Source: an uncultured bacterium
GTDB taxonomy: Bacteria > Patescibacteriota > Minisyncoccia > UBA6257 > UBA9933
Direction: 5' to 3'
DNA: 57,860 nt
Assembly (NCBI GenBank): GCA_913009635.1
Contig: CAJVXI010000002.1
Coordinates: forward strand, 1 to 57,860
Shown: one piece after another, positions 5,207-14,465 of the stretch
Numbering within the stretch: the stretch's first letter is position 1
Layout of the letters: each line of letters starts with the position of its first letter
Position numbers and translations under genes: made by a program
The notes under the pieces: generated by a model
Seen by the model: the letters and a program-made list of their open reading frames with translations, nothing else
The model's database searches: none
What the model was told of the DNA's origin: nothing

Positions 5207-6214
5207 ATGTTAAATATTAATTATTCACTTAAATCATTAAAGATAATCGTAGAAAAGGTAAAGCCCTCAAAAATTGTTTTAGTAAGTTCAAATAATTTAA
5301 TTCCAAAATTAAATTGGGCTATTACAGAGTTAAAAGAATTAACGCCTGTTGAAATTAAAATTATTCAGGTTCCTGATGGAGAAGTAGCGAAAGAATGGGG
5401 TGTTTTAAAAGAATTACTGAGCGATTTTATTGAAGTAGGGTTAAACAGGAAAAGTATTGTTATAGCTTTGGGGGGCGGCTCAATAACTGATTTAGTTGGT
5501 TTCGCGTCATCAATTTATCAAAGGGGTGTTCCTTATATAAATATTCCCACTACTCTTTTAGCTCAAATTGATAGTTCCATAGGTGGAAAAACAGCTATTA
5601 ATTTTTTGGATTATAAAAATCAAATAGGTTCTTTTTATAATCCAATAGCTATAATCATTGACAGCCGATTTTTAGAAACTCTAACTGAACGGCAAATTAT
5701 TGATGGCTTTGCAGAAATAATTAAGTATGGGCTAATTAAAGACCCGAGCATATTGGAAATTATAAAATCTTGTAATTTGGCTGCTTTAAGAGAAGAATCT
5801 GTTATGGAGGGTTTAATTTCAAAATCAATTAAGGTAAAAGAATATTTTATTGAAAAAGATCCGTATGATTTAAATATTAGACAAATTTTAAATTTTGGTC
5901 ATACAATTGCTCATTCACTTGAGCTTAAATATAATTTAAGCCATGGAGAAGCTGTTTTGATTGGGATGATGGAAGAGCTTAAACTTGGCGAGCAATTAGG
6001 AGAGGCAAGTCCTGAAATAAAAAATTATCTAGGCGTGCTTCTTAAAAATTTAAATATTACTCTAAATAAAAAACAGCTGAAAGTTGATTGGAAATCTATT
6101 TTACACGATAAGAAAATCTCAGGAAAAGAAATTAATTTGCCAGTTGTTAAAAAATTAGGTGAGGCAAAATTGATTAAAGTTAGATTAGATAAACTAATTT
6201 CATTAATTAAATAG
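5207..6214 (+). CDS. 3-dehydroquinate synthase family protein (sugar-phosphate cyclase superfamily)
   Basis: GGGSITDLVGFASSIYQRGVPYINIPTTLLAQIDSSIGGKTAINF, NFGHTIAHSLE and HGEAVLIGM motifs. ATG at 5207 is preferred over the TTG at 5141 used by the ORF track. Confidence 0.75.
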   Translation: MLNINYSLKSLKIIVEKVKPSKIVLVSSNNLIPKLNWAITELKELTPVEIKIIQVPDGEVAKEWGVLKELLSDFIEVGLNRKSIVIALGGGSITDLVGFASSIYQRGVPYINIPTTLLAQIDSSIGGKTAINFLDYKNQIGSFYNPIAIIIDSRFLETLTERQIIDGFAEIIKYGLIKDPSILEIIKSCNLAALREESVMEGLISKSIKVKEYFIEKDPYDLNIRQILNFGHTIAHSLELKYNLSHGEAVLIGMMEELKLGEQLGEASPEIKNYLGVLLKNLNITLNKKQLKVDWKSILHDKKISGKEINLPVVKKLGEAKLIKVRLDKLISLIK

Positions 6215-6220
6215 CAAAAT

Positions 6221-6254
6221 AAACGGCTCACACGTCGTGTGAGCCGTTTATTTT
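6221..6254 (+). terminator. rho-independent terminator after the aroB-like gene
   Basis: 13-bp perfect stem aaacggctcacac / gtgtgagccgttt with loop gtc, followed by attttgg. Confidence 0.75.
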
Positions 6255-6424
6255 GGTGCTTTTTCAACGGCTTAACGCACGTTGAGCCGTTAAGTGGCGT
6301 ATTAACATTTGATGCGGTCGTCTTGAGATGTTAACTATTAATAACATTACTCGCGACACGATAGTGAAGGATGTTAATATGTGGGTTTTTACGCGCTCTA
6401 ACATAATTAAATAAAGAGCTTTTT

Positions 6425-6455
6425 TCAACGGCTAACACGGCGTATTAGCCGTTGA
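6425..6455. repeat. 31-nt hairpin repeat tcaacggctaa-N9-ttagccgttga (second copy at 22796..22826)
   Basis: 11-bp perfect arms. A near-identical copy overlaps the rnhB stop codon. A related AACGGCT/AGCCGTT hairpin lies at 6266..6291. Confidence 0.8.
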
Positions 6456-6545
6456 AATGACTTGCCATGAGCTTGCCGAAGCCTTGTTTTTATGGTTGTT
6501 TTTTGATATAATTAAAGTACCCGAAGAGGGTATTTTATTGTAAAT

Positions 6546-8561
6546 ATGCCTAAAAAATCAGTAAAAAAAGAACAAAAAACCGAGCAAAATAACGCTTCTT
6601 ATAGAGCTAAGGATATTTATGTTTTGGAGGGTTTGGAGCCGGTACGGAAACGACCGGGAATGTATATTGGTACGACTGGAACAGATGGTTTGCATCACTT
6701 AATTTGGGAATGTGTGGATAATTCCATTGATGAAGCAATGGCTGGTTTTGCTAAGAATATTAAAATTGAACTACTTAAAAATAATCGAGTAGCTGTTTCT
6801 GATGATGGGCGTGGAATTCCAGTTGATATTCATCCCCAAACAAAGAAGTCGGCTTTGGAAACCGTAATGACCACCCTTCACGCTGGCGGAAAATTCGGCG
6901 GTGAATCTTATAAAGTTGCAGGCGGTCTTCATGGGGTTGGTGTTTCAGTGGTAAACGCTTTATCAAAATGGCTGAGAGTTGAAGTTTGTCGTGATGGAAA
7001 TCTTTATTCTCAAGAATATGAACGTGGCGAGCCAAAATACAAAGTTAAAAAAGAAGAGAAATGTTCGCAGACCGGAACTAAAGTAATTTTTGATGCTGAT
7101 CCGGAAATTTTCCAAAATATTGAATTCGACAGAAAAAAGATTTTAGACCATTTACGACAGCAGGCCTTTTTGACTAAGGGTATAAAAATCGAGATTATTG
7201 ATGAAAGAGAAGCAGTGCCTTTTTATCATGTTTTTTATTTTGAAGGAGGACTTTTGTCTTTTATTGAATATTTAAACCGTTTTAACAAACCTGTTCAGAA
7301 AGAAATTTTTTATACTCATAAAAATTATATTGATATCGAAGTTGAAAACGCTTTTATTTATAATCATGAAATTGAAAATAAAGAATTAAGTTTTGCTAAT
7401 AATATTTATACTGCGGATGGCGGAATGCACATTACTGGTTTCCGTTCGGCGTTAACAAGAACATTAAATGATTATGCTAGGACTAATAACTATCTTAAAG
7501 AATCGGACGATAATTTAACAGGAGATGACATTAGAGAGGGATTGGTGTCTATAGTTTCAATTAAGCTTAGAGAGCCGCAATTTGAGGGCCAGACTAAGGC
7601 AAGATTAGGTAATCCAGAAGCCCGAACAGCAGTAGAGTCGGTAATTAATGAATCATTAAAAGAATTTTTAGAGAAACATTCTAATGATGCCAGAGCAATT
7701 ATTGAAAAGTGTTTATTGGCAGCCAAGGCCAGAAAAGCCGCTAAAGCAGCTAAAGACACAGTTTTGCGAAAAGGCGTTTTAGAAGGTTTGACTTTGCCAG
7801 GAAAATTAGCGGATTGTTCAAGCCGTGAACCTTCAGAATCAGAATTATTTATAGTTGAGGGTGATAGCGCCGGCGGAAGTTCAAAGATGGCGCGAGATCG
7901 TCGGACTCAAGCAATTTTACCTTTGCGTGGAAAAATTCTCAATGTTGAAAAAGCGCGGATTGATAAGATACTTGCCAATAAAGAAATTCGTTCTTTGGTA
8001 ATTGCTATTGGTACGGCTATTGGTAATGAATTTAATCTTTCAAAACTTCGTTATCATAAAATTATTTTAATGACAGATGCTGATGTTGATGGGTCACACA
8101 TTAGAACATTATTACTTGTTTTATTTTATAGGTATTTTATTTCTGTTATTGAAAACGGCTATCTTTATATTGCTCAACCACCGTTGTATAGAATTCAATC
8201 AGGAAGAGAGATTAGGTATGCTTATACTGAATCTGAAAAACAAAATATAATTTCTGAAATTCAGAAAATCAAAAAAGATAAGAGTTCTAAGGCTAAAGAT
8301 GAAAAAGAGTTGATTAATGAAGATGGAATTGAAAAAATAAAAAAAATCAATATTCAACGCTATAAAGGTCTTGGAGAAATGAATTCTGATCAGCTTTGGG
8401 AAACAACAATGGATCCAGAAAATCGAACATTAAAGATTGTAACTATTGAAAATGCTCAAGAAGCCGATAGAATGTTTGATGTTTTAATGGGTGAACAGGT
8501 TGAACCACGTCGTCATTTTATCCAAAGCAGAGCGACGATGGTTAAAAATCTTGATATATAA
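6546..8561 (+). CDS. gyrB: DNA gyrase subunit B
   Basis: YVLEGLEPVRKRPGMYIGT, LHAGGKFG, EGDSAGGS, PLRGKILNVE and QRYKGLGEMN motifs. Confidence 0.97.
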   Translation: MPKKSVKKEQKTEQNNASYRAKDIYVLEGLEPVRKRPGMYIGTTGTDGLHHLIWECVDNSIDEAMAGFAKNIKIELLKNNRVAVSDDGRGIPVDIHPQTKKSALETVMTTLHAGGKFGGESYKVAGGLHGVGVSVVNALSKWLRVEVCRDGNLYSQEYERGEPKYKVKKEEKCSQTGTKVIFDADPEIFQNIEFDRKKILDHLRQQAFLTKGIKIEIIDEREAVPFYHVFYFEGGLLSFIEYLNRFNKPVQKEIFYTHKNYIDIEVENAFIYNHEIENKELSFANNIYTADGGMHITGFRSALTRTLNDYARTNNYLKESDDNLTGDDIREGLVSIVSIKLREPQFEGQTKARLGNPEARTAVESVINESLKEFLEKHSNDARAIIEKCLLAAKARKAAKAAKDTVLRKGVLEGLTLPGKLADCSSREPSESELFIVEGDSAGGSSKMARDRRTQAILPLRGKILNVEKARIDKILANKEIRSLVIAIGTAIGNEFNLSKLRYHKIILMTDADVDGSHIRTLLLVLFYRYFISVIENGYLYIAQPPLYRIQSGREIRYAYTESEKQNIISEIQKIKKDKSSKAKDEKELINEDGIEKIKKINIQRYKGLGEMNSDQLWETTMDPENRTLKIVTIENAQEADRMFDVLMGEQVEPRRHFIQSRATMVKNLDI

Positions 8562-9455: not shown

Positions 9456-9534
9456 AAAGTATTAAGTATAAAGTATAAAGTATAAAGTATTAAGTATTGT
9501 TTTTGTATTTGATACCTGACATTTGAAATATTCA

Positions 9535-9957
9535 ATGGCAAAAGTAATTAAAACAACATTAAAGCTTCAGATTCCGGCTGGAAAAGCCAATCCAGCTCCT
9601 CCAGTTGGGCCTGCTTTGGGGCAGCACGGAGTTAATATTCAGCAGTTTTGTCAGCAGTTTAATGAGGCCACCAAGGAAATGGGAACAGATATTGTCCCTG
9701 CTGAAATTACGATTTATGAAGATAGAACTTTTGATTTTAAACTAAAAACTCCGCCAGCTTCTGATTTATTGCGAAAAGCGGCTGGAATTGAAAAAGGTTC
9801 AGGCGATCCGTTAAAAAATAAAGTTGGTAAAGTAACTAAAGCGCAAATTAAAGAAATAGCAGAGAAGAAAATGGTTGACTTAAACGCAAATGATATTGAT
9901 GCGGCAATGAAAGTTGTTGAAGGAACAGCCCGTTCAATGGGTATTGAAGTGGAATAA
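9535..9957 (+). CDS. rplK: 50S ribosomal protein L11
   Basis: [38 protein letters not shown] at 9535 is preferred over the TTG at 9523. Confidence 0.95.
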
Positions 9958-9992
9958 TTAGCTTTTAGTTTTAAGCTTTTAGTTTTTTAGTT

Positions 9993-10016
9993 CGGCGGCA
10001 AAAGCCGCCCTTTTTT
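9993..10016 (+). terminator. rho-independent terminator after rplK
   Basis: ggcggc-aaaa-gccgcc stem-loop followed by a T6 run. Preceded by reversed KLKTK-type repeats (agcttttagtttt x2). Confidence 0.8.
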
Positions 10017-10118
10017 GTTGACAAATCAACCATTATTAGATATTGTTCATTTTAGAAGCTTTGATAATTAAATATCAGCTAAAAATAAAAATCTGAAATA
10101 AAGAAATGGAGGTGTTTT

Positions 10119-10913
10119 ATGTTTAAGCCAATAGTGAAGCAAATAATTGTTTCAAGTATAGAGCATGGTTGGTATATGCTTTTGGATTCGATTATAACAG
10201 ACGGAAGAAAGTACAAGATTGAATATGGTAATGAATATCGACTCAGTGGCAAATTTGTTGTTGAAATGCATATACCAGGCGCAAGGCCGCTTGCTCCTAT
10301 TATGCCCGAAGGTTCCGCAATTTTTCCGCCTACAACAGAAGAGAAAATAGAAGAGTACTTCGGAGATCTTATATCTCCTGACAAAAAGCCGAATCAGCAC
10401 TACAGCTATGGCCAGGATCTATCGTGGCAGATTGAAGAGGTAATTAAGTACTTCAAAAAATATGGACACAATACAGCTTGTTGTCAGATGCCGGTAGGAA
10501 GGCCTGAGTCGTTTTTCTTCTATAGCAGAGAGGTTGATTATGATGAAAAGATAATTGTAAAAGACAGAAAAACTGGCGAATTGATCTGGACTAAAGAAAT
10601 TACAAATACATGGAACAAAAATCCCAAAGAAGAGGTTAGTTCCCAATGTTTAAGAAGCGTAGATGTCTGGATTGAAAATAATAAATTACATTTTTGGTGC
10701 TATTTCCGTTCACAGGACGCATGGGGTGCTTTTCCGGAAAACTACGGCGGTCTTCAGCTAGTCAAAGAATACATGGCTGATGTGCTTGCAGTGGAAGACG
10801 GTCCAATGATTGCTTCAGCGAAAGATTTACATGTTTATGATTACGCATGGTTAACTACTTTAATGAGAATTAAAAAAGAAGAGGGCTTTCTCAAAGAAAG
10901 GGGGGTGCTCTAA
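10119..10913 (+). CDS. divergent thymidylate synthase (ThyA)-fold protein
   Basis: CYFRSQDAWGAFPENYGG aligns by eye with ThyA [20 protein letters not shown] (R-S-x-D ... P-x-N). Candidate catalytic Cys in SSQCLRS. Strong RBS aatggaggtg. Confidence 0.6.
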   Translation: MFKPIVKQIIVSSIEHGWYMLLDSIITDGRKYKIEYGNEYRLSGKFVVEMHIPGARPLAPIMPEGSAIFPPTTEEKIEEYFGDLISPDKKPNQHYSYGQDLSWQIEEVIKYFKKYGHNTACCQMPVGRPESFFFYSREVDYDEKIIVKDRKTGELIWTKEITNTWNKNPKEEVSSQCLRSVDVWIENNKLHFWCYFRSQDAWGAFPENYGGLQLVKEYMADVLAVEDGPMIASAKDLHVYDYAWLTTLMRIKKEEGFLKERGVL

Positions 10914-10914
10914 T

Positions 10915-11349
10915 ATGACTAAGAAAAAAAAGAAAGTTGTTAACAGGCGTTTTGCAAGAAAAGGGGAGTATGACAGTGTTTTAAAAACTATTGAAAAACG
11001 CGGTAAATGTCCCTTTTGTCCTGACAATTTTAAGTATCATAAGAATCCAATATTAAAAAAACGTTGCGGATGGTTTGTGACAAAGATAAGCTGGCCGTAT
11101 AAGAACACAAAACACCATTTCATTATCATTAGCGATAAACACAGAGAGAATATTCAAGAGCTTATTGGTAAAGACATGGAAAGTATTTTGTATTTGGCCA
11201 AATGGATTGTTTCCAGATACAAGATAAGAGGCGGCGGATTAGCAATGCGTTTTGGAAACAGTTTGTATACTGGAGCAACTGTTTGTCATATACACGCACA
11301 TCTAATCGTGCCTAAGCGAGGAAAAACAGTGAATTTCCCGATTGGTTGA
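10915..11349 (+). CDS. HIT (histidine triad) family nucleotide hydrolase/transferase
   Basis: CPFCP N-terminal motif and the histidine triad HIHAHLIV. The start is 1 nt after the ThyA-like stop. Confidence 0.75.
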   Translation: MTKKKKKVVNRRFARKGEYDSVLKTIEKRGKCPFCPDNFKYHKNPILKKRCGWFVTKISWPYKNTKHHFIIISDKHRENIQELIGKDMESILYLAKWIVSRYKIRGGGLAMRFGNSLYTGATVCHIHAHLIVPKRGKTVNFPIG

Positions 11350-11361
11350 TGTAAAAAAATA

Positions 11362-11386
11362 CCCCCCTCACTTTACGTGTGGGGGG
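11362..11386. terminator. bidirectional hairpin between convergent genes
   Basis: cccccc-N13-gggggg flanked by A- and T-runs. Confidence 0.6.
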
Positions 11387-11389
11387 CTT

Positions 11390-12217
11390 TTATTTTACTA
11401 AAATAATCTTAATATTCTTTGCTTTCATTATTTCCAAGCCATTAAGAGATGCGTGTCCTTTTTTGAAGTAGCATTTCTTTATTCCGGTCTTTGATAGTTC
11501 TCTGGCGCACATTGGACAAGGAAAATCAGTTGCATACAGAGAGGATCCTTTTAACTTGATTCCTTCTCTTGCAGCTTCGGTGATTATAGACTGTTCAGCA
11601 TGAAGTGAGGTTGCTATGTCGTTATTTTCTCCTGCTTTTACAAAATCACGCGGATCGCCAAAAGTGTACGGTGTATGGTCTGACGGTAGATGATGATTAT
11701 GGTGAGCTCTGAGTATTATATTCCCGTTTTTAACTAGGACAGCTCCAACATTTCTCCACCAGTCAGAACTATGCTTAGCTTCTTCTTCGGTTATTTTAAT
11801 CATTTTACGGTCAAATTTACTGCGTGAAATCGTATCATAACCAACGGGTTTTTTTGTAAGGATATTTTTTTCATCCCAGCGTAGAAATACCGTATCAATA
11901 GTTAACTCCGAACGAGGAAAGTATTTTTTTACAAGATTTAGCGAGATGCTTTCATCAGCGGTAATTATTGGCAGATGCTGTAATTTTTTAACCAAATTAT
12001 TGGTCAGAATTTTAACTTTGTGGAATAACCCGCCGGATTTGATGATTTTTTTTACAATAATAGGATTAATTTGCCGTATCTCTTTTTCTAGAAAAGTGAA
12101 TTCTCGGATTAATTTGGAACCGAGAATATAAAGCGTGTCAGCTTTCTTGTATTTTTCTAAAAATTTGAGGTAGCCGGCATGCAGAACAGGAATGTAAAGA
12201 ATGATTATCTTTTTCAA
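11390..12217 (-). CDS. dCMP deaminase (CMP/dCMP zinc deaminase) fused to an N-terminal nucleotidyltransferase-like domain
   Basis: The C-terminal half has HAEQS and PCPMC zinc motifs. The N-terminal ~120 aa carry a degenerate IPVLHAGY (HxGH-like) motif. Confidence 0.75.
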   Translation of the reverse strand: MKKIIILYIPVLHAGYLKFLEKYKKADTLYILGSKLIREFTFLEKEIRQINPIIVKKIIKSGGLFHKVKILTNNLVKKLQHLPIITADESISLNLVKKYFPRSELTIDTVFLRWDEKNILTKKPVGYDTISRSKFDRKMIKITEEEAKHSSDWWRNVGAVLVKNGNIILRAHHNHHLPSDHTPYTFGDPRDFVKAGENNDIATSLHAEQSIITEAAREGIKLKGSSLYATDFPCPMCARELSKTGIKKCYFKKGHASLNGLEIMKAKNIKIILVK

Positions 12218-12228
12218 TTGCTCCCTCC

Positions 12229-12783
12229 TTATCGCCTGTCAGTTTTAGTCAGCATTTTTTCTAAAGTTTTTTTGACAACGTCTTGAATTGTTCTGGACGT
12301 AGATGTTTCTTCGGCTTGCCTTGGAAGAACAACAAGTTTTTTGCAAAATTGTTTTATTTCCTCCTTTTGTTCTTTCGGGTAGCTGTCTTTAACAGCGATA
12401 AATACATCTGGTTTGATTTTCTTGATAAGCTCATACAGCCATTTTTTATTATTATCAACATCATCAATAAGCGTTACGAAATCAACACACCCTTGATAGC
12501 TGAGCATTTCTACTCGTTCATTTTCCGGAATAATAGGACGCAGTTCTCCTTTATAAATTTTAACTGCTCTGTCGCTATCTACTCCGACTACTAATATATC
12601 CCCGTGCGTTTTAGCTTTTCGTAAGTACCTCACGTGTCCAATATGAAGTAAATCCCAACTGCCTATAGTTACTATGATTCTGTATCCGAGTTCACGCATA
12701 ACATTTGTCACCTTGGTTAATTTTTCAATATCCAAAATGATTTTTTTGTGGTCATTTTTTCCCTTATTGCTGAAATTTTCCAT
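12229..12783 (-). CDS. cytidylyltransferase-like (CTP_transf_like, RfaE-II/TagD type) nucleotidyltransferase
   Basis: GSWDLLHIGHVRYL (GxFDxxHxGH) and RPIIPENERVEMLSYQGCVDFV. Confidence 0.75.
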   Translation of the reverse strand: MENFSNKGKNDHKKIILDIEKLTKVTNVMRELGYRIIVTIGSWDLLHIGHVRYLRKAKTHGDILVVGVDSDRAVKIYKGELRPIIPENERVEMLSYQGCVDFVTLIDDVDNNKKWLYELIKKIKPDVFIAVKDSYPKEQKEEIKQFCKKLVVLPRQAEETSTSRTIQDVVKKTLEKMLTKTDRR

Positions 12784-12935
12784 TTTTTCTCCTTTTCTTT
12801 CTTGTATTTATAATTTTTATTTTTAAAGAACTTATCTATTTTATATAGTAAACGGTGATAAAAGTCAAATAAAATATGGCAAATGCCACCCTTATTTTTT
12901 TTGCGCTCCTGCCTAAAAATTTATATAATTATGGC

Positions 12936-14465
12936 ATGACTTACATTCCTACTATTGGCTTGGAAATCCATACCCATCTCAAAACCCGCACTAAAATGTT
13001 TTGCGGTTGTGACAATGACTTTAACGAAAAGCATCCCAATATTAATGTTTGCCCGATTTGTTTGGGACACCCCGGTACTTTACCGGTTATAAACAAAAAA
13101 GCCGTTGAATCGGTTCTTAAATTAGGATTGGCATTAGGCGGAAATCCGCCGTCTGCGCCTAGTAAGGGAATATCAAAATTTGACCGTAAAAATTATTTTT
13201 ATCCGGATTTACCAAAAGGATACCAGATATCGCAATATGACCAGCCATTAATATCAGGCGGCCAATTAAACGGCATACGGCTTACAAGAATTCATTTAGA
13301 AGAAGACGCTGCGCGGCTTGCGCATCAAACTAAAAACCCCCGCCTGCCATCGCCTGATGGCGAAGTCATTGGCGGGCAGGAAAAACTAAAAACTAAAAGC
13401 TATAGCTTGGTTGACTTTAATCGTGCAGGAGTACCTTTAATGGAATTAGTAACTGAACCAGATATTAAAGACGGCAAAAAAGCAGTTGAATTCGCAAAAG
13501 AACTTCAGCTAGTTTTGCGCTATTTGGAGATTTCTGACGCAGATATGGAGAAAGGGCAAATGAGAATAGAAGCAAATATTAGTGTGTCCAAAGATGGAAA
13601 ATTAGGTACCAAGGTGGAAATAAAAAATCTTAATTCTTTTCGTGCAGCAGGAGAGGCGATTGATTACGAAATTAAAAGGCAGTCAGAGGTTTTAGATAGA
13701 GGTGAACAAGTTGAGCATGAAACTCGTGGCTGGGACGAAAACAAAAAAAATACCGTTAGTCAAAGAAGCAAAGAAAAAGCGCATGATTACCGTTATTTTC
13801 CAGAGCCGGATTTACCGCCTTTGGATTTTAACGAGTCAAACGCCATAGATTTGAGAAAATTAAGAATAGAAATTCCGGAATTACCAGCAAATAAGCGTAA
13901 GAGATTTATAGAAGAATATAGATTATCTTCAGAGCAAGTTGAGGTATTGGTTAGCGAATCGTCAACAGCCCAATATTTTGAAGAATCAGTATCAGAATTA
14001 TTGGAAGAATTACAGAGCGAAAAGAGTGAAAAGAAAAAAATTGAGGCAATGATGTTATTGTTTAATTATCTAACTAGTGATATTAGGGGATTAGCCAATG
14101 AAAAAGGGGTAAGCGTCAAAGATATAAATATTACTCCAGAAAATTTTGCGGATTTAATAGTGTTGATTATCAAAGGAGAGATTACAAGCCGTCTTGCAAA
14201 AGATATTTTAAAAGAAATGTCTTTGACCGGACTTGATCCGTGGCAGATTATTCAAGATAAGGGTTTGGGTCAGATTTCTGACGAGAAAATTATTAAGGAG
14301 ATTATTAAAGAAATTGTAAGCGAAAATCAAAAAGCGGTAGAAGATTATAAAAAGGGTAAAGAAAATGTTTTGCAGTTTCTTTTTGGTCAAGTAATGGGTA
14401 AATTAAAAGGCCAAGCTAACCCCGATGTTTTAAGAAATCTTTTACAAGAGGAATTAAGGAAGTAG
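12936..14465 (+). CDS. gatB: aspartyl/glutamyl-tRNA amidotransferase subunit B
   Basis: PTIGLEIH, CPICLGHPGTLPV, YFYPDLPKGYQISQ and VDFNRAGVPLMELV motifs. ATG at 12936 is preferred. The 3' end overlaps convergent miaA by 50 nt. Confidence 0.93.
   Translation: MTYIPTIGLEIHTHLKTRTKMFCGCDNDFNEKHPNINVCPICLGHPGTLPVINKKAVESVLKLGLALGGNPPSAPSKGISKFDRKNYFYPDLPKGYQISQYDQPLISGGQLNGIRLTRIHLEEDAARLAHQTKNPRLPSPDGEVIGGQEKLKTKSYSLVDFNRAGVPLMELVTEPDIKDGKKAVEFAKELQLVLRYLEISDADMEKGQMRIEANISVSKDGKLGTKVEIKNLNSFRAAGEAIDYEIKRQSEVLDRGEQVEHETRGWDENKKNTVSQRSKEKAHDYRYFPEPDLPPLDFNESNAIDLRKLRIEIPELPANKRKRFIEEYRLSSEQVEVLVSESSTAQYFEESVSELLEELQSEKSEKKKIEAMMLLFNYLTSDIRGLANEKGVSVKDINITPENFADLIVLIIKGEITSRLAKDILKEMSLTGLDPWQIIQDKGLGQISDEKIIKEIIKEIVSENQKAVEDYKKGKENVLQFLFGQVMGKLKGQANPDVLRNLLQEELRK
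13338..13400 (+). repeat. GC-rich palindromic element (family C) plus KLKTK element, in frame in gatB
   Basis: cccgcctgccatcgcctgatggcgaagtcattggcgggcagg followed by aaaaactaaaaactaaaagc. Arms cccgcc/ggcggg and gccatc/gatggc. Translated as NPRLPSPDGEVIGGQEKLKTKS, just before conserved SLVDFNRAG. Confidence 0.75.

What the first reader, a model, noticed from the sequence alone, without database searches (positions are those of the whole stretch)
10119..12783. Foreign-looking pyrimidine deoxynucleotide cluster inserted between rplK and gatB
There are four genes in two convergent pairs. They have strong SD sites and visibly higher GC than their neighbours. (1) A very divergent ThyA-fold protein has the R-S-x-D ... 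P-x-N block; the Asn aligns by eye with E. coli N177, the uracil-versus-cytosine determinant, and there is a candidate catalytic Cys. (2) A translationally coupled HIT protein. (3) A dCMP deaminase fused to a degenerate HxGH nucleotidyltransferase-like domain. (4) A TagD/RfaE-II-like cytidylyltransferase. dCMP to dUMP to dTMP is the simple reading. However, HIT plus two nucleotidyltransferase folds around a ThyA-like enzyme also resembles nucleotide or base hypermodification cassettes. The cluster sits exactly where rplA is expected.
Basis: partly seen in the sequence, partly recalled or inferred. Interest (0 to 1): 0.6.

Follow-up and report, generated by a model that had tools for sequence, protein, structure and literature searches.

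The report
Ancestral thymidylate cluster with odd partners
These four genes are not a foreign insert but this bacterial group's usual gene set for making the DNA letter T, here built around an archaeal-type enzyme and two conserved helper enzymes whose jobs are still unknown.

Summary
The four ORFs, their two convergent pairs, their SD sites and their domains are real. "Foreign" and "inserted" are not supported. GC is 0.369 against a genome mean of 0.342 (z = 1.1). The order gyrB-nusG-rplK-[TS]-HIT-DCD-NT-gatB-miaA recurs across many families of the class. A ThyA-DHFR-HIT / DCD-NT cassette recurs in other classes of the phylum. rplA is absent from this genome and from 129 of 151 sampled class genomes, so the cluster abuts rplK.

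Most likely this is the lineage's thymidylate cluster (dCMP to dUMP to dTMP). The ThyA-like protein is an archaeal-type member of the ThyA superfamily and the only thymidylate synthase candidate in the genome. It sits where relatives carry canonical ThyA plus DHFR. HIT, the nucleotidyltransferase (NT) and the degenerate cytidylyltransferase-fold domain on the deaminase form a conserved trio tied to thymidylate enzymes by adjacency and fusions (DHFR-HIT, HIT-ThyA, deaminase-ThyA-like). Their chemistry is unknown. My guess is that they supply or gate dCMP.

Unexplained: no DHFR in 10 of 10 genomes with this TS type, no thymidylate kinase here, and the closest solved fold is a flavin-dependent dCMP hydroxylase. 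A modified-base reading is unlikely but not excluded.

The parts
9994..10046 (+). Terminator-like hairpin after rplK (9994-10009 plus T-run), then a promoter-like site (TTGACA-17-TATTGT, 10018-10046) upstream of the ThyA-like gene
   Evidence: The total number of such sites in the region is no more than shuffles give, so only their placement is suggestive.
10119..10913 (+). Archaeal-type ThyA-superfamily protein, 264 aa; the sole thymidylate synthase candidate in the genome
   Evidence: PF00303 26.6 bits. TIGR03283 88.6 bits over residues 9-245, below the cut-off of 174.55. AF2 model pLDDT 90.1. TS fold. Forms a clade with Patescibacteria and Desulfobacterota long forms inside the archaeal-type family, apart from canonical ThyA. 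It is the only PF00303 hit in the genome, and there is no ThyX.
10915..11349 (+). HIT protein, 144 aa, nearest the Hint branch, with CPFC and HIHAHLI motifs; starts one base after the ThyA-like stop
   Evidence: C32, C35, H125 and H127 are invariant in 19 orthologues. Orthologues are fused to DHFR or to ThyA.
11364..11386 (.). GC-rich hairpin between the convergent HIT and deaminase genes; likely a shared terminator
   Evidence: sequence printed.
11390..11812 (-). dCMP deaminase domain (residues about 136-275) with HAE and PCxxC zinc motifs
   Evidence: PF00383 62.1 bits. Z 18.2, 17.4, 17.2 and 17.0 to dCMP deaminases 4p9c, 2hvv, 7fh4 and 1vq2. H206, E208, C234 and C237 are invariant.
11813..12217 (-). 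N-terminal degenerate cytidylyltransferase-fold domain of the deaminase (residues 1 to about 135; HxGH has become HAGY; TTG start)
   Evidence: Fold matches Z 8.0-8.5 over residues 1-112. Weak PF01467 hit (E 0.0081) on an orthologue's N-domain. In the database search this domain was found fused to the deaminase in 17 of 19 hits; the other 2 carry no Pfam call.
12229..12783 (-). RfaE-II/TagD-type HIGH nucleotidyltransferase, 184 aa, with intact HIGH motif; followed closely by the deaminase gene, which has its own SD
   Evidence: PF01467 66.4 bits. TIGR02199 101.8 bits, below the cut-off of 181.5. PDB sequence hits 3elb and 5x9q. T39, G41, D44, H47, G49 and H50 are invariant in 14 orthologues.

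Best explanation
The region is this lineage's own thymidylate-synthesis cluster, at its ancestral place between nusG-rplK(-rplA) and gatB. It now touches rplK because the lineage has lost rplA.

Supported by homology and context: the deaminase turns dCMP into dUMP. The archaeal-type ThyA-superfamily enzyme methylates dUMP to dTMP, using methylene-tetrahydrofolate supplied by the genome's SHMT and FolD. In this genome and a few relatives that enzyme has replaced, in situ, the canonical ThyA+DHFR pair that most relatives carry in the same slot.

Inferred: HIT, the intact nucleotidyltransferase (NT) and the degenerate cytidylyltransferase-fold domain on the deaminase are one conserved accessory module of this pathway. 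They travel together across the phylum and are linked to DHFR, ThyA and the deaminase by gene fusions.

My proposal for the mechanism has about 25% odds. NT consumes dCTP (or CTP) to make a (d)CMP-phospho-X conjugate plus pyrophosphate. HIT hydrolyses that conjugate to the monophosphate. The pseudo-transferase domain binds a cytosine nucleotide and so gates or docks the deaminase. The net effect is dCTP to dCMP, feeding dUMP production in a genome where no dCTP deaminase/dUTPase family was found and the only cytidylate-kinase hit is sub-threshold and falls on adenylate kinase. How the folate is recycled without DHFR, and how dTMP is phosphorylated without Tmk, is not explained.
For: Synteny. 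In 20 loci (19 relatives plus the window), HIT is present in 20, the extended deaminase in 19, NT in 18, nusG in 16, rplK in 13, gatB in 11 and miaA in 9, in a conserved order.

The TS slot. It holds canonical ThyA in 12 loci, the archaeal-type ThyA-like gene in 4, and an MtrA+TS+PterinBD fusion in 3. DHFR, Tmk (4 loci), SHMT (3) and FolD (2) lie in the same clusters.

The trio. 19 of the 20 class genomes with a specific HIT orthologue have NT and the extended deaminase within 1.5 kb. All 19 genomes carrying the whole trio also carry a PF00303 TS gene. The twentieth, G017, has only a DHFR-HIT fusion beside a Thy1-like ORF.

Other classes of the phylum. Of 14 genomes with a specific HIT, 14 have canonical ThyA beside it, 13 have DHFR, 14 have a deaminase hit (one of them very weak) and 9 have NT within 1.5 kb.

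Fusions. 44 of 44 aligned long HIT relatives carry DHFR_1. Two more DHFR-HIT proteins and one HIT-ThyA fusion were found. P0071 is a deaminase+ThyA-like fusion. The Atlas lists a 370-aa PF01467+PF00383 cluster (a lead only).

Own genome. The only PF00303 hit is this gene. There is no ThyX and no TK. SHMT and FolD are present. No dUTPase/Dcd family was found. The only Cmk hit is sub-threshold and is Adk.

Residues and families. The catalytic Cys, RSxD, Asn177-equivalent and DxHxY are present. The best phage and NCBI families are thymidylate synthase.
Against: No DHFR_1 or RibD_C reductase was found in this genome. None was found in any of the 10 class genomes with the archaeal-type enzyme, against 43 of 47 genomes with canonical ThyA. 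A classical ThyA would drain tetrahydrofolate.

No Tmk was found by three methods.

The model is structurally closest to flavin-dependent dCMP hydroxylase AfhB (9iqu: Z 21.8, 206 residues aligned, 2.5 A) and to MilA (5jnh: Z 19.5). The best canonical TS scores Z 17.8.

The residue three before the catalytic Cys is Ser. In ThyA it is a water-excluding Leu (criterion from PMC13326640, passages read). The alignment has a gap at that spot.

The window protein is below the TIGR03283 cut-off.

For the NT/HIT mechanism there is no direct evidence. NT's best family is an ATP-using adenylyltransferase. HIT sits nearest Hint phosphoramidases, whose physiological substrates are themselves unclear.
Confidence: 0.7

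Rival explanations
1. Modified-base pathway. The ThyA-like enzyme is a dUMP hydroxymethylase or hydroxylase, not a methylase, so the DNA carries a thymine analogue. NT and HIT activate or process the unusual nucleotide.
For: No DHFR in 10 of 10 genomes with this enzyme type; a hydroxymethylase returns THF, not DHF. No Tmk in 6 of 6 long-form genomes. The closest solved folds are AfhB and MilA, not ThyA. The only phage matches (2 records, 28.9% identity, E 4e-4) are annotated deoxyuridylate hydroxymethyltransferase. Ser, not Leu, stands three residues before the catalytic Cys.
Against: The gene sits in the slot where relatives have canonical ThyA+DHFR. The same trio accompanies canonical ThyA in 12 class genomes and 14 genomes of other classes. 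It is the only TS candidate, and there is no TK, so no other dTMP source is seen. Asp is kept at the D169 position and Asn at N177, whereas the flavin hydroxylases carry D169N. The best profile families are thymidylate synthase. No glycosyl- or other base-decorating genes are adjacent. Tmk is also missing from 9 of 12 trio genomes that have canonical ThyA, so loss of Tmk is not specific to this enzyme.
Confidence: 0.08
2. The ThyA-like enzyme is a true thymidylate synthase that does not oxidise folate. It takes reducing equivalents from a flavin or another donor, as ThyX does, so DHFR is dispensable.
For: The 0 of 10 against 43 of 47 DHFR pattern. No RibD_C-type reductase either. SHMT and FolD are present, so methylene-THF is available. 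A flavin-binding branch of the TS fold exists and is the closest solved structure (PMC13326640 passages).
Against: No flavin-binding motif was tested. The higher Z to AfhB may only reflect the shared compact size. An unrecognised DHF reductase, such as a short-chain dehydrogenase, was not searched for. Asp at the D169 position is the folate-type signature by the criterion of PMC13326640.
Confidence: 0.2
3. NT plus HIT bypass thymidylate kinase. NT joins AMP to dTMP. HIT then transfers the thymidylyl group to phosphate or pyrophosphate, giving dTDP or dTTP.
For: In the class sample, 16 of 20 genomes with the specific HIT lack a PF02223 hit, against 33 of 181 others. Among canonical-ThyA genomes, 9 of 12 with the trio lack Tmk against 2 of 35 without it. 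G018 has a Tmk homologue in the cluster that falls below both Tmk cut-offs and shows no GxxGxGK motif in its printed N-terminus. The window genome has no Tmk.
Against: In other classes, 10 of 14 trio genomes do have a Tmk hit, and in G247 and G271 it lies beside the cluster. Ten genomes that are TS-positive, Tmk-negative and trio-negative exist. Kin are not independent. An uncharacterised AAA_33/zeta-like P-loop kinase (G000:C12:29332-29841) could be the missing kinase.
Confidence: 0.08
4. The four genes are a recently acquired foreign island, or an anti-phage dCTP-deaminase system.
For: GC3 and codon distance sit at the 84th-98th percentiles. The deaminase gives local hits to anti-phage dCTP deaminase models (NF041025; PDLC02373). 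The ThyA-like family also occurs in DPANN archaea, Chloroflexota and Desulfobacterota, so that one gene may descend from an old transfer.
Against: Conserved synteny across families and classes. GC z = 1.1. The defence-model hits cover only the zinc motif, residues 201-251. The neighbours are folate and thymidylate enzymes.
Confidence: 0.03

Closest known systems
Classical dCMP-deaminase route to dTMP (ComEB/Cd + ThyA/Td + FolA/Frd, as in Gram-positive bacteria and T-even phages)
   Same: The same three chemistries are encoded together in relatives: deaminase, ThyA and DHFR, with SHMT, FolD and Tmk nearby. Phage td-frd adjacency is seen in RB69.
   Different: Here ThyA+DHFR are replaced by an archaeal-type enzyme with no DHFR in the genome. 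The deaminase carries an extra pseudo-cytidylyltransferase domain. Two further enzymes (HIT and NT) are constant members. I found no description of this in my searches.
Methanogen-type thymidylate synthase (NCBIfam TIGR03283)
   Same: This is the best full-length family match (residues 9-245 on profile positions 3-199 of 201, E 3.9e-25). The window protein nests inside a clade with DPANN and Thermoplasmata short forms (100/99 support).
   Different: It scores 88.6 bits against a cut-off of 174.55. It carries about 45 extra residues (about 131-175) that restore the ThyA-like R/K-x-I-x-N-x-W-N segment missing from the short forms.
Flavin-dependent dCMP hydroxylase AfhB / RB69 gp48, and CMP hydroxymethylase MilA (TS-fold enzymes)
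   Same: These are the closest solved structures: Z 21.8, 21.4 and 19.5.
   Different: Those enzymes carry Asp at the N177 position (cytosine substrates), and the hydroxylases carry D169N (PMC13326640). The window protein has Asn and Asp respectively. Sequence identity is 13-16%.
Hint-branch HIT proteins (for example 3oj7, 5uvm)
   Same: The HIT profile matches them best (E 2.2e-8 and 1.3e-7), with CxFC and HxHxH aligned.
   Different: The window protein is below the Pfam HIT cut-off. RxG replaces the usual NxG, and GATV replaces GQTV. A third of the closest representative relatives are fused to DHFR.
HldC/RfaE domain II and TagD/ECT cytidylyltransferases; ECT's tandem active plus degenerate transferase domains (the ECT architecture is recalled, not tested)
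   Same: NT has the HIGH motif and family-wide invariant residues. An active transferase encoded next to a degenerate copy resembles ECT's two-domain layout.
   Different: There are no heptose or teichoic-acid genes around. The degenerate copy is fused to a dCMP deaminase. NT is below the equivalog cut-offs for RfaE-II (101.8 against 181.5) and TagD (38.9 against 165.4).

Membership tests
Thymidylate synthase ThyA superfamily (PF00303, TS fold) | Profile score over the curated cut-off | tested here: met
   26.6 bits against 24.3, but only residues 159-243 on profile positions 127-214.
Thymidylate synthase ThyA superfamily (PF00303, TS fold) | Catalytic Cys, RSxD, Asn at the uracil/cytosine determinant, DxHxY | tested here: met
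   C177, R197-S198-Q-D200, N208 and D237-L-H-V-Y align to these motifs in solved TS sequences. C177, R197, S198 and N208 are invariant in 24 relatives.
Thymidylate synthase ThyA superfamily (PF00303, TS fold) | TS fold | tested here: met
   AF2 pLDDT 90.1. Foldseek probability 1.00 to many TS structures. VIA Z 17-17.8 to ThyA and 21.8 to AfhB.
Thymidylate synthase ThyA superfamily (PF00303, TS fold) | Water-excluding hydrophobic residue at the E. coli L143 position (separates methylases from hydroxymethylases) | tested here: inconclusive
   Ser stands three residues before the Cys. The HMM alignment places a gap exactly there. The criterion comes from PMC13326640.
Thymidylate synthase ThyA superfamily (PF00303, TS fold) | Functional coupling with a dihydrofolate reductase | tested here: not met
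   No DHFR_1 or RibD_C in a genome that is 98% complete. 0 of 10 genomes with this enzyme type have DHFR. Other reductase families were not searched.
Methanogen-type thymidylate synthase (TIGR03283 equivalog) | Score over the equivalog cut-off | tested here: not met
   88.6 bits against 174.55.
HIT superfamily (PF01230) | Histidine triad HxHxHxx and profile score | tested here: inconclusive
   The motif HIHAHLI is present, and H125/H127 are invariant. The window protein scores 19.7 bits, below 21.5. Orthologues pass (36.5 bits). The family profile hits Hint structures at E 2.2e-8.
dCMP deaminase (PF00383; ComEB TIGR02571) | HAE and PCxxC zinc site, deaminase fold nearest dCMP deaminases | tested here: met
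   62.1 bits against 25. The motifs are invariant. Z 17-18.2 to four dCMP deaminases. The ComEB equivalog cut-off is not reached (39.7 against 219.45).
Cytidylyltransferase-like HIGH nucleotidyltransferases (PF01467): the NT gene | HxGH motif and profile score | tested here: met
   66.4 bits against 21. H47-I-G-H50 is invariant in 14 orthologues.
RfaE domain II heptose-1-phosphate adenylyltransferase (TIGR02199) | Equivalog cut-off | tested here: not met
   101.8 bits against 181.5.
Cytidylyltransferase-like fold: the deaminase N-domain | Fold and catalytic HxGH | tested here: not met
   The fold is matched at Z 8.0-8.5 over residues 1-112. The motif is HAGY here and TLNQRH in divergent orthologues. 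So it is a fold relative, not an active member.
Phage-type pyrimidine hypermodification cassette | TS homologue with N177D, D169N or an acidic L143 equivalent, plus base-decorating enzymes nearby | tested here: not met
   Asn and Asp are kept. The neighbours are rplK and gatB. No phage match for HIT.
Anti-phage dCTP deaminase (NF041025 / PDLC02373) | Full-length match including the N-terminal kinase-like part | tested here: not met
   Only residues 201-251 match.

The most novel reading that the evidence does not exclude
The archaeal-type ThyA-like enzyme of these Patescibacteria does not make ordinary dTMP by the classical route. In the boldest form, it hydroxymethylates or hydroxylates dUMP, so a free-living cellular lineage would carry a thymine analogue throughout its chromosome. 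HIT and NT would handle the unusual nucleotide in place of DHFR and Tmk. A milder form, at about 20%, is that it is a ThyA-fold thymidylate synthase that spares folate by using another reductant.
Probability: 0.08. Interest if true: 0.9.

Novelty: new variant of a known kind. Interest (0 to 1): 0.55.

Why it matters
Thymidylate synthesis is one of the best-mapped pathways in biology. Yet here a whole phylum of reduced-genome bacteria keeps three extra parts welded to it: a Hint-like HIT protein, an intact HIGH nucleotidyltransferase, and a pseudo-transferase domain on dCMP deaminase. The HIT protein is fused to DHFR in at least 46 of the 150 closest representative clusters. That points to an unrecognised step or control in making dTMP. 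It could also give a Hint-type HIT protein a concrete physiological substrate.

The window's version also bears on an old question: how ThyA-type enzymes work without FolA. Ten of ten sampled genomes with this enzyme type lack DHFR, against 4 of 47 with canonical ThyA. The enzyme is small and could be expressed and assayed directly.

Tried and rejected
Foreign island. Rejected on synteny and on composition (z = 1.1).

Defence system. Rejected. The padloc and NCBIfam hits cover only the zinc motif.

Physical NT to pseudo-transferase-domain pairing. Complex prediction gave 'no answer' (score 0.00, controls not run). It counts neither for nor against.

The search for homologous proteins with the HIT alignment and lengths 'longer' found nothing, because it searched only 367-2000 aa and so missed the ~330-aa fusions. 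The fusions were then found with the search of protein representatives.

The deaminase N-domain searched alone found 19 proteins. 17 of them carry the deaminase domain and the other 2 have no Pfam call. No new architecture appeared.

HIT against phage records: no match. The ThyA-like protein against phages: only 2 weak matches.

'The trio replaces Tmk'. This looked strong inside the class (16 of 20 against 33 of 181). It weakened when 10 of 14 trio genomes in other classes proved to have Tmk, and when a spare P-loop kinase was found in the genome.

Tree caveats. There are long branches. The RB69 row I labelled as hydroxymethylase-like is gp48, a 5-hydroxy-dCMP synthase according to PMC13326640. 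The root was placed on canonical ThyA by choice. The rows were a hand-picked 36: 19 of the 120 listed homologues, 8 of the 80 loci, 2 fusion domains, 4 canonical CPR ThyA and 3 phage proteins.

Literature. These searches found no description of this cassette or of DHFR-HIT fusions: 'thymidylate synthase / Candidate Phyla Radiation / dCMP deaminase'; 'histidine triad / dihydrofolate reductase / fusion / thymidylate'; 'thymidylate kinase / Patescibacteria / absent'; 'DUF4346 / MtrA / thymidylate synthase'. These are full-text searches of an open-access subset only.

Papers seen. PMC13326640: passages found by term search. Its supplementary figures were not seen and may bear on the flavin claim. 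PMC9931769: two passages. bioRxiv 10.1101/2022.01.07.475337: start of the abstract in a search listing only.

Limits. The RNR class and its substrate level (NDP or NTP) were not determined. PyrH, Gmk and alternative DHF reductases were not searched. The classification of TS types in the class sample rests on E-value, profile coverage and ORF length read.

Full report
WHAT IS THERE

The window is contig C2 of a 713-kb genome that is 98% complete, 34.3% GC, and of Patescibacteria type (named relatives). Four ORFs lie between rplK (9523-9957) and gatB (12876-14465):
- a ThyA-like protein, 10119-10913 (+);
- a HIT protein, 10915-11349 (+);
- an extended deaminase, 11390-12217 (-);
- a nucleotidyltransferase (NT), 12229-12783 (-).

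Each has an SD-like site. One base separates the ThyA-like stop from the HIT start. The deaminase starts at a TTG, 11 bases after the NT stop. A terminator-like hairpin and a promoter-like site follow rplK, and a GC hairpin sits between the convergent pairs. The total number of such sites is no more than chance gives.

DOMAINS

- ThyA-like protein. It passes PF00303 narrowly and partially (26.6 bits). Over its full length it is best matched by the methanogen-type TS model TIGR03283, but below the cut-off (88.6 against 174.55).
- HIT. It is just under the Pfam cut-off, but it has CPFC and HIHAHLI. Its family profile matches Hint-branch structures.
- Deaminase C-half. This is a dCMP deaminase by sequence and by fold (Z 17-18.2).
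- Deaminase N-half (residues 1-112). It has the cytidylyltransferase fold (Z 8.0-8.5 to TagD, HldC, Fom1 and others), with the catalytic HxGH degraded to HAGY.
- NT. It is an intact HIGH nucleotidyltransferase, closest to RfaE-II/HldC and to ECT/TagD, and under every equivalog cut-off.

NOT FOREIGN

Cluster GC is 0.3685. Windows of the same size across the genome average 0.342 with sd 0.024, and 12.4% are as high or higher. rplK, gatB and miaA are equally GC-rich.

I took the 19 other genomes of the same class (from a 201-genome sample) that carry a specific HIT orthologue and fetched about 9 kb on each side of it. The order gyrB-nusG-rplK-[TS]-HIT-deaminase-NT-gatB-miaA recurs across many families.

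The TS position varies:
- canonical ThyA in 12 loci;
- the archaeal-type ThyA-like gene in 4 loci, including the window;
- a 482-491-aa MtrA+TS+PterinBD(DUF4346) fusion in 3 loci.

DHFR lies beside HIT or is fused to it. Tmk, SHMT, FolD and Nudix genes join the cluster in some genomes. In L117 the whole folate/thymidylate set lies between rplK and gatB.

In 14 genomes of other classes of the phylum the cassette is ThyA-DHFR-HIT facing deaminase-NT.

rplA is absent from this genome and was found in only 22 of 151 sampled class genomes. Loss of L1 in this radiation is already in print (abstract of bioRxiv 10.1101/2022.01.07.475337, seen in a listing). In a relative that keeps rplA (G033), the cluster lies downstream of nusG and rplA. 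So the cluster touches rplK because rplA was lost, not because something was inserted.

THE TS-LIKE ENZYME

Its family is large.

In a 36-row maximum-likelihood tree:
- the Patescibacteria long forms are one clade (100/99);
- they are sister to Desulfobacterota long forms (99/98);
- both sit inside the short archaeal-type family (100/99);
- canonical ThyA is apart (100/100).

So the protein does not cluster with canonical thymidylate synthases.

It keeps the catalytic Cys, RSxD, the Asn that selects uracil, and DxHxY. Its roughly 45 extra residues, relative to the short forms, restore the canonical R/K-x-I-x-N-x-WN segment.

It is the genome's only TS candidate. There is no ThyX, no second PF00303 hit and no thymidine kinase. 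SHMT and FolD are present. Together with its in-situ replacement of ThyA, this makes thymidylate synthase the most likely function.

THREE FACTS THAT DO NOT FIT A TEXTBOOK ThyA

1. No DHFR_1 and no RibD_C reductase was found in this genome. In the class sample the DHFR pattern by TS type is:
   - canonical ThyA: 43 of 47 genomes have DHFR;
   - archaeal-type enzyme: 0 of 10;
   - MtrA-TS fusion: 1 of 19.

2. By VIA Z-score the model is closer to the flavin-dependent dCMP hydroxylase AfhB (Z 21.8 and 21.4) and to MilA (Z 19.5) than to any ThyA (Z 17.8 or less). Part of this may be shared compact size.

3. The residue three before the Cys is Ser, where ThyA has a water-excluding Leu. The alignment is gapped there (criteria from PMC13326640).

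By that paper's other markers the window protein looks like a folate-type, uracil-specific enzyme (Asp at D169, Asn at N177).

THE TRIO

HIT, NT and the extended deaminase behave as a unit. 19 of 20 class genomes with the specific HIT have the other two within 1.5 kb. NT is always immediately upstream of the deaminase, on the same strand. All 19 trio genomes have a PF00303 TS. G017 has only a DHFR-HIT fusion, next to a Thy1-like ORF.

Fusions tie every part to the pathway:
- A profile search of 1.84 billion representatives gave 2840 HIT relatives.
- Of the best 150, 52 are 270 aa or longer.
- I aligned 44 of those 52, and all 44 carry DHFR_1.
- Of the other 8, two are DHFR-HIT, one is HIT+canonical ThyA, and five look like tandem or unassigned forms.
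- A deaminase+ThyA-like fusion (P0071) and an Atlas cluster of transferase+deaminase proteins (a lead only) complete the picture.

Genomes with the ThyA-like gene but without the trio carry a plain short deaminase just upstream instead. So the trio is an add-on to the deaminase step.

WHAT THE TRIO DOES

This is inference. HIGH transferases join an NMP to a phosphate ester and release pyrophosphate. Hint/Fhit-type HIT enzymes cleave NMP-X to NMP. In series they convert an NTP to an NMP.

This genome shows no dCTP deaminase/dUTPase family. Its only cytidylate-kinase hit is sub-threshold and falls on the adk gene. So a route from dCTP to the deaminase's substrate, dCMP, is missing. The cytosine theme fits that reading: a cytidylyltransferase family, a pseudo-cytidylyltransferase domain, and a dCMP deaminase. 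I put this at about 25%.

I also considered a Tmk bypass. Within the class, 16 of 20 HIT genomes lack Tmk, against 33 of 181 others. One cluster (G018) holds a Tmk homologue that falls below both Tmk cut-offs. However:
- in other classes 10 of 14 trio genomes have Tmk;
- ten genomes lack both Tmk and the trio yet have a TS;
- the genome holds an uncharacterised AAA_33-type kinase.

The complex prediction for NT with the pseudo-domain gave no verdict.

VERDICT

The 'foreign insertion' framing is wrong. The simple pathway reading is right. The unusual parts are conserved and undescribed rather than exotic imports.

The finding is a new variant of a known kind. It carries two testable puzzles: a ThyA-type enzyme without DHFR, and a HIT/transferase pair wired into thymidylate synthesis.

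Noticed in passing
L117:6642-8087(-), L118:11737-13209(+), L116:3-1109(-); about 19 of 201 class genomes: Proteins of 467-564 aa that fuse an MtrA-like domain, a TS domain and a PterinBD-DUF4346 domain. They sit in the thymidylate cluster in place of ThyA. Only 1 of the 19 genomes has DHFR. A literature search found nothing on them. They may be a different way of handling the pterin or methyl donor.
   Followed up: partly
P0102-P0110; L022 and L023 (Desulfacinum infernum and D. hydrothermale), 6001-6732: Desulfobacterota long-form relatives read RSWN instead of RSxD. This is the D169N change that PMC13326640 uses as the signature of flavin hydroxylases. They keep Asn at the N177 position and have lost DxHxY (KLGLAE). 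They occur in cultured strains, so they could be tested.
   Followed up: no
whole genome G000; window 9523-10118: No ribosomal protein L1 gene was found in this 98%-complete genome. It was found in only 22 of 151 sampled genomes of the class. This is a known trait of the radiation.
   Followed up: yes
G000 (whole genome); G000:C12:29332-29841(-): No thymidylate kinase was found by Pfam model, protein search or tblastn, although a TS is present. Adk and Ndk are present. A 170-aa AAA_33/zeta-toxin-like P-loop kinase of unknown specificity is a candidate substitute.
   Followed up: partly
L120:7383-7979(+) (genome G018): A Tmk homologue sits inside the thymidylate cluster. It scores below both Tmk cut-offs (PF02223 24.2 against 27; TIGR00041 33.6 against 83.25), and its printed N-terminus shows no GxxGxGK motif.
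   Followed up: partly
L127:7079-8788(+) (genome G017): A 570-aa ORF with a weak Thy1/ThyX match (E 3.9e-10) lies next to a DHFR-HIT fusion. This genome has no PF00303 hit. DHFR beside a ThyX-type enzyme is unexpected.
   Followed up: no
G000 (whole genome): No dUTPase/dCTP-deaminase family (PF00692) and no class III RNR were found. One 875-aa PF02867 ribonucleotide reductase lies at C1:19926-21416. How dUTP is kept out of the DNA is unclear.
   Followed up: no
window 14416-14465: The convergent gatB and miaA ORFs overlap by 50 bases at their 3' ends. The longest gatB ORF also begins about 20 codons upstream of the conserved MTYIPTIGLE start.
   Followed up: no
Atlas cluster, 370 aa, commonest in Saccharimonadota: A cluster of 52 proteins carries PF01467 (100% of members) plus PF00383 (98%). 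This would be an intact transferase fused to the deaminase. It is a lead from the Atlas only; no alignment was seen.
   Followed up: no
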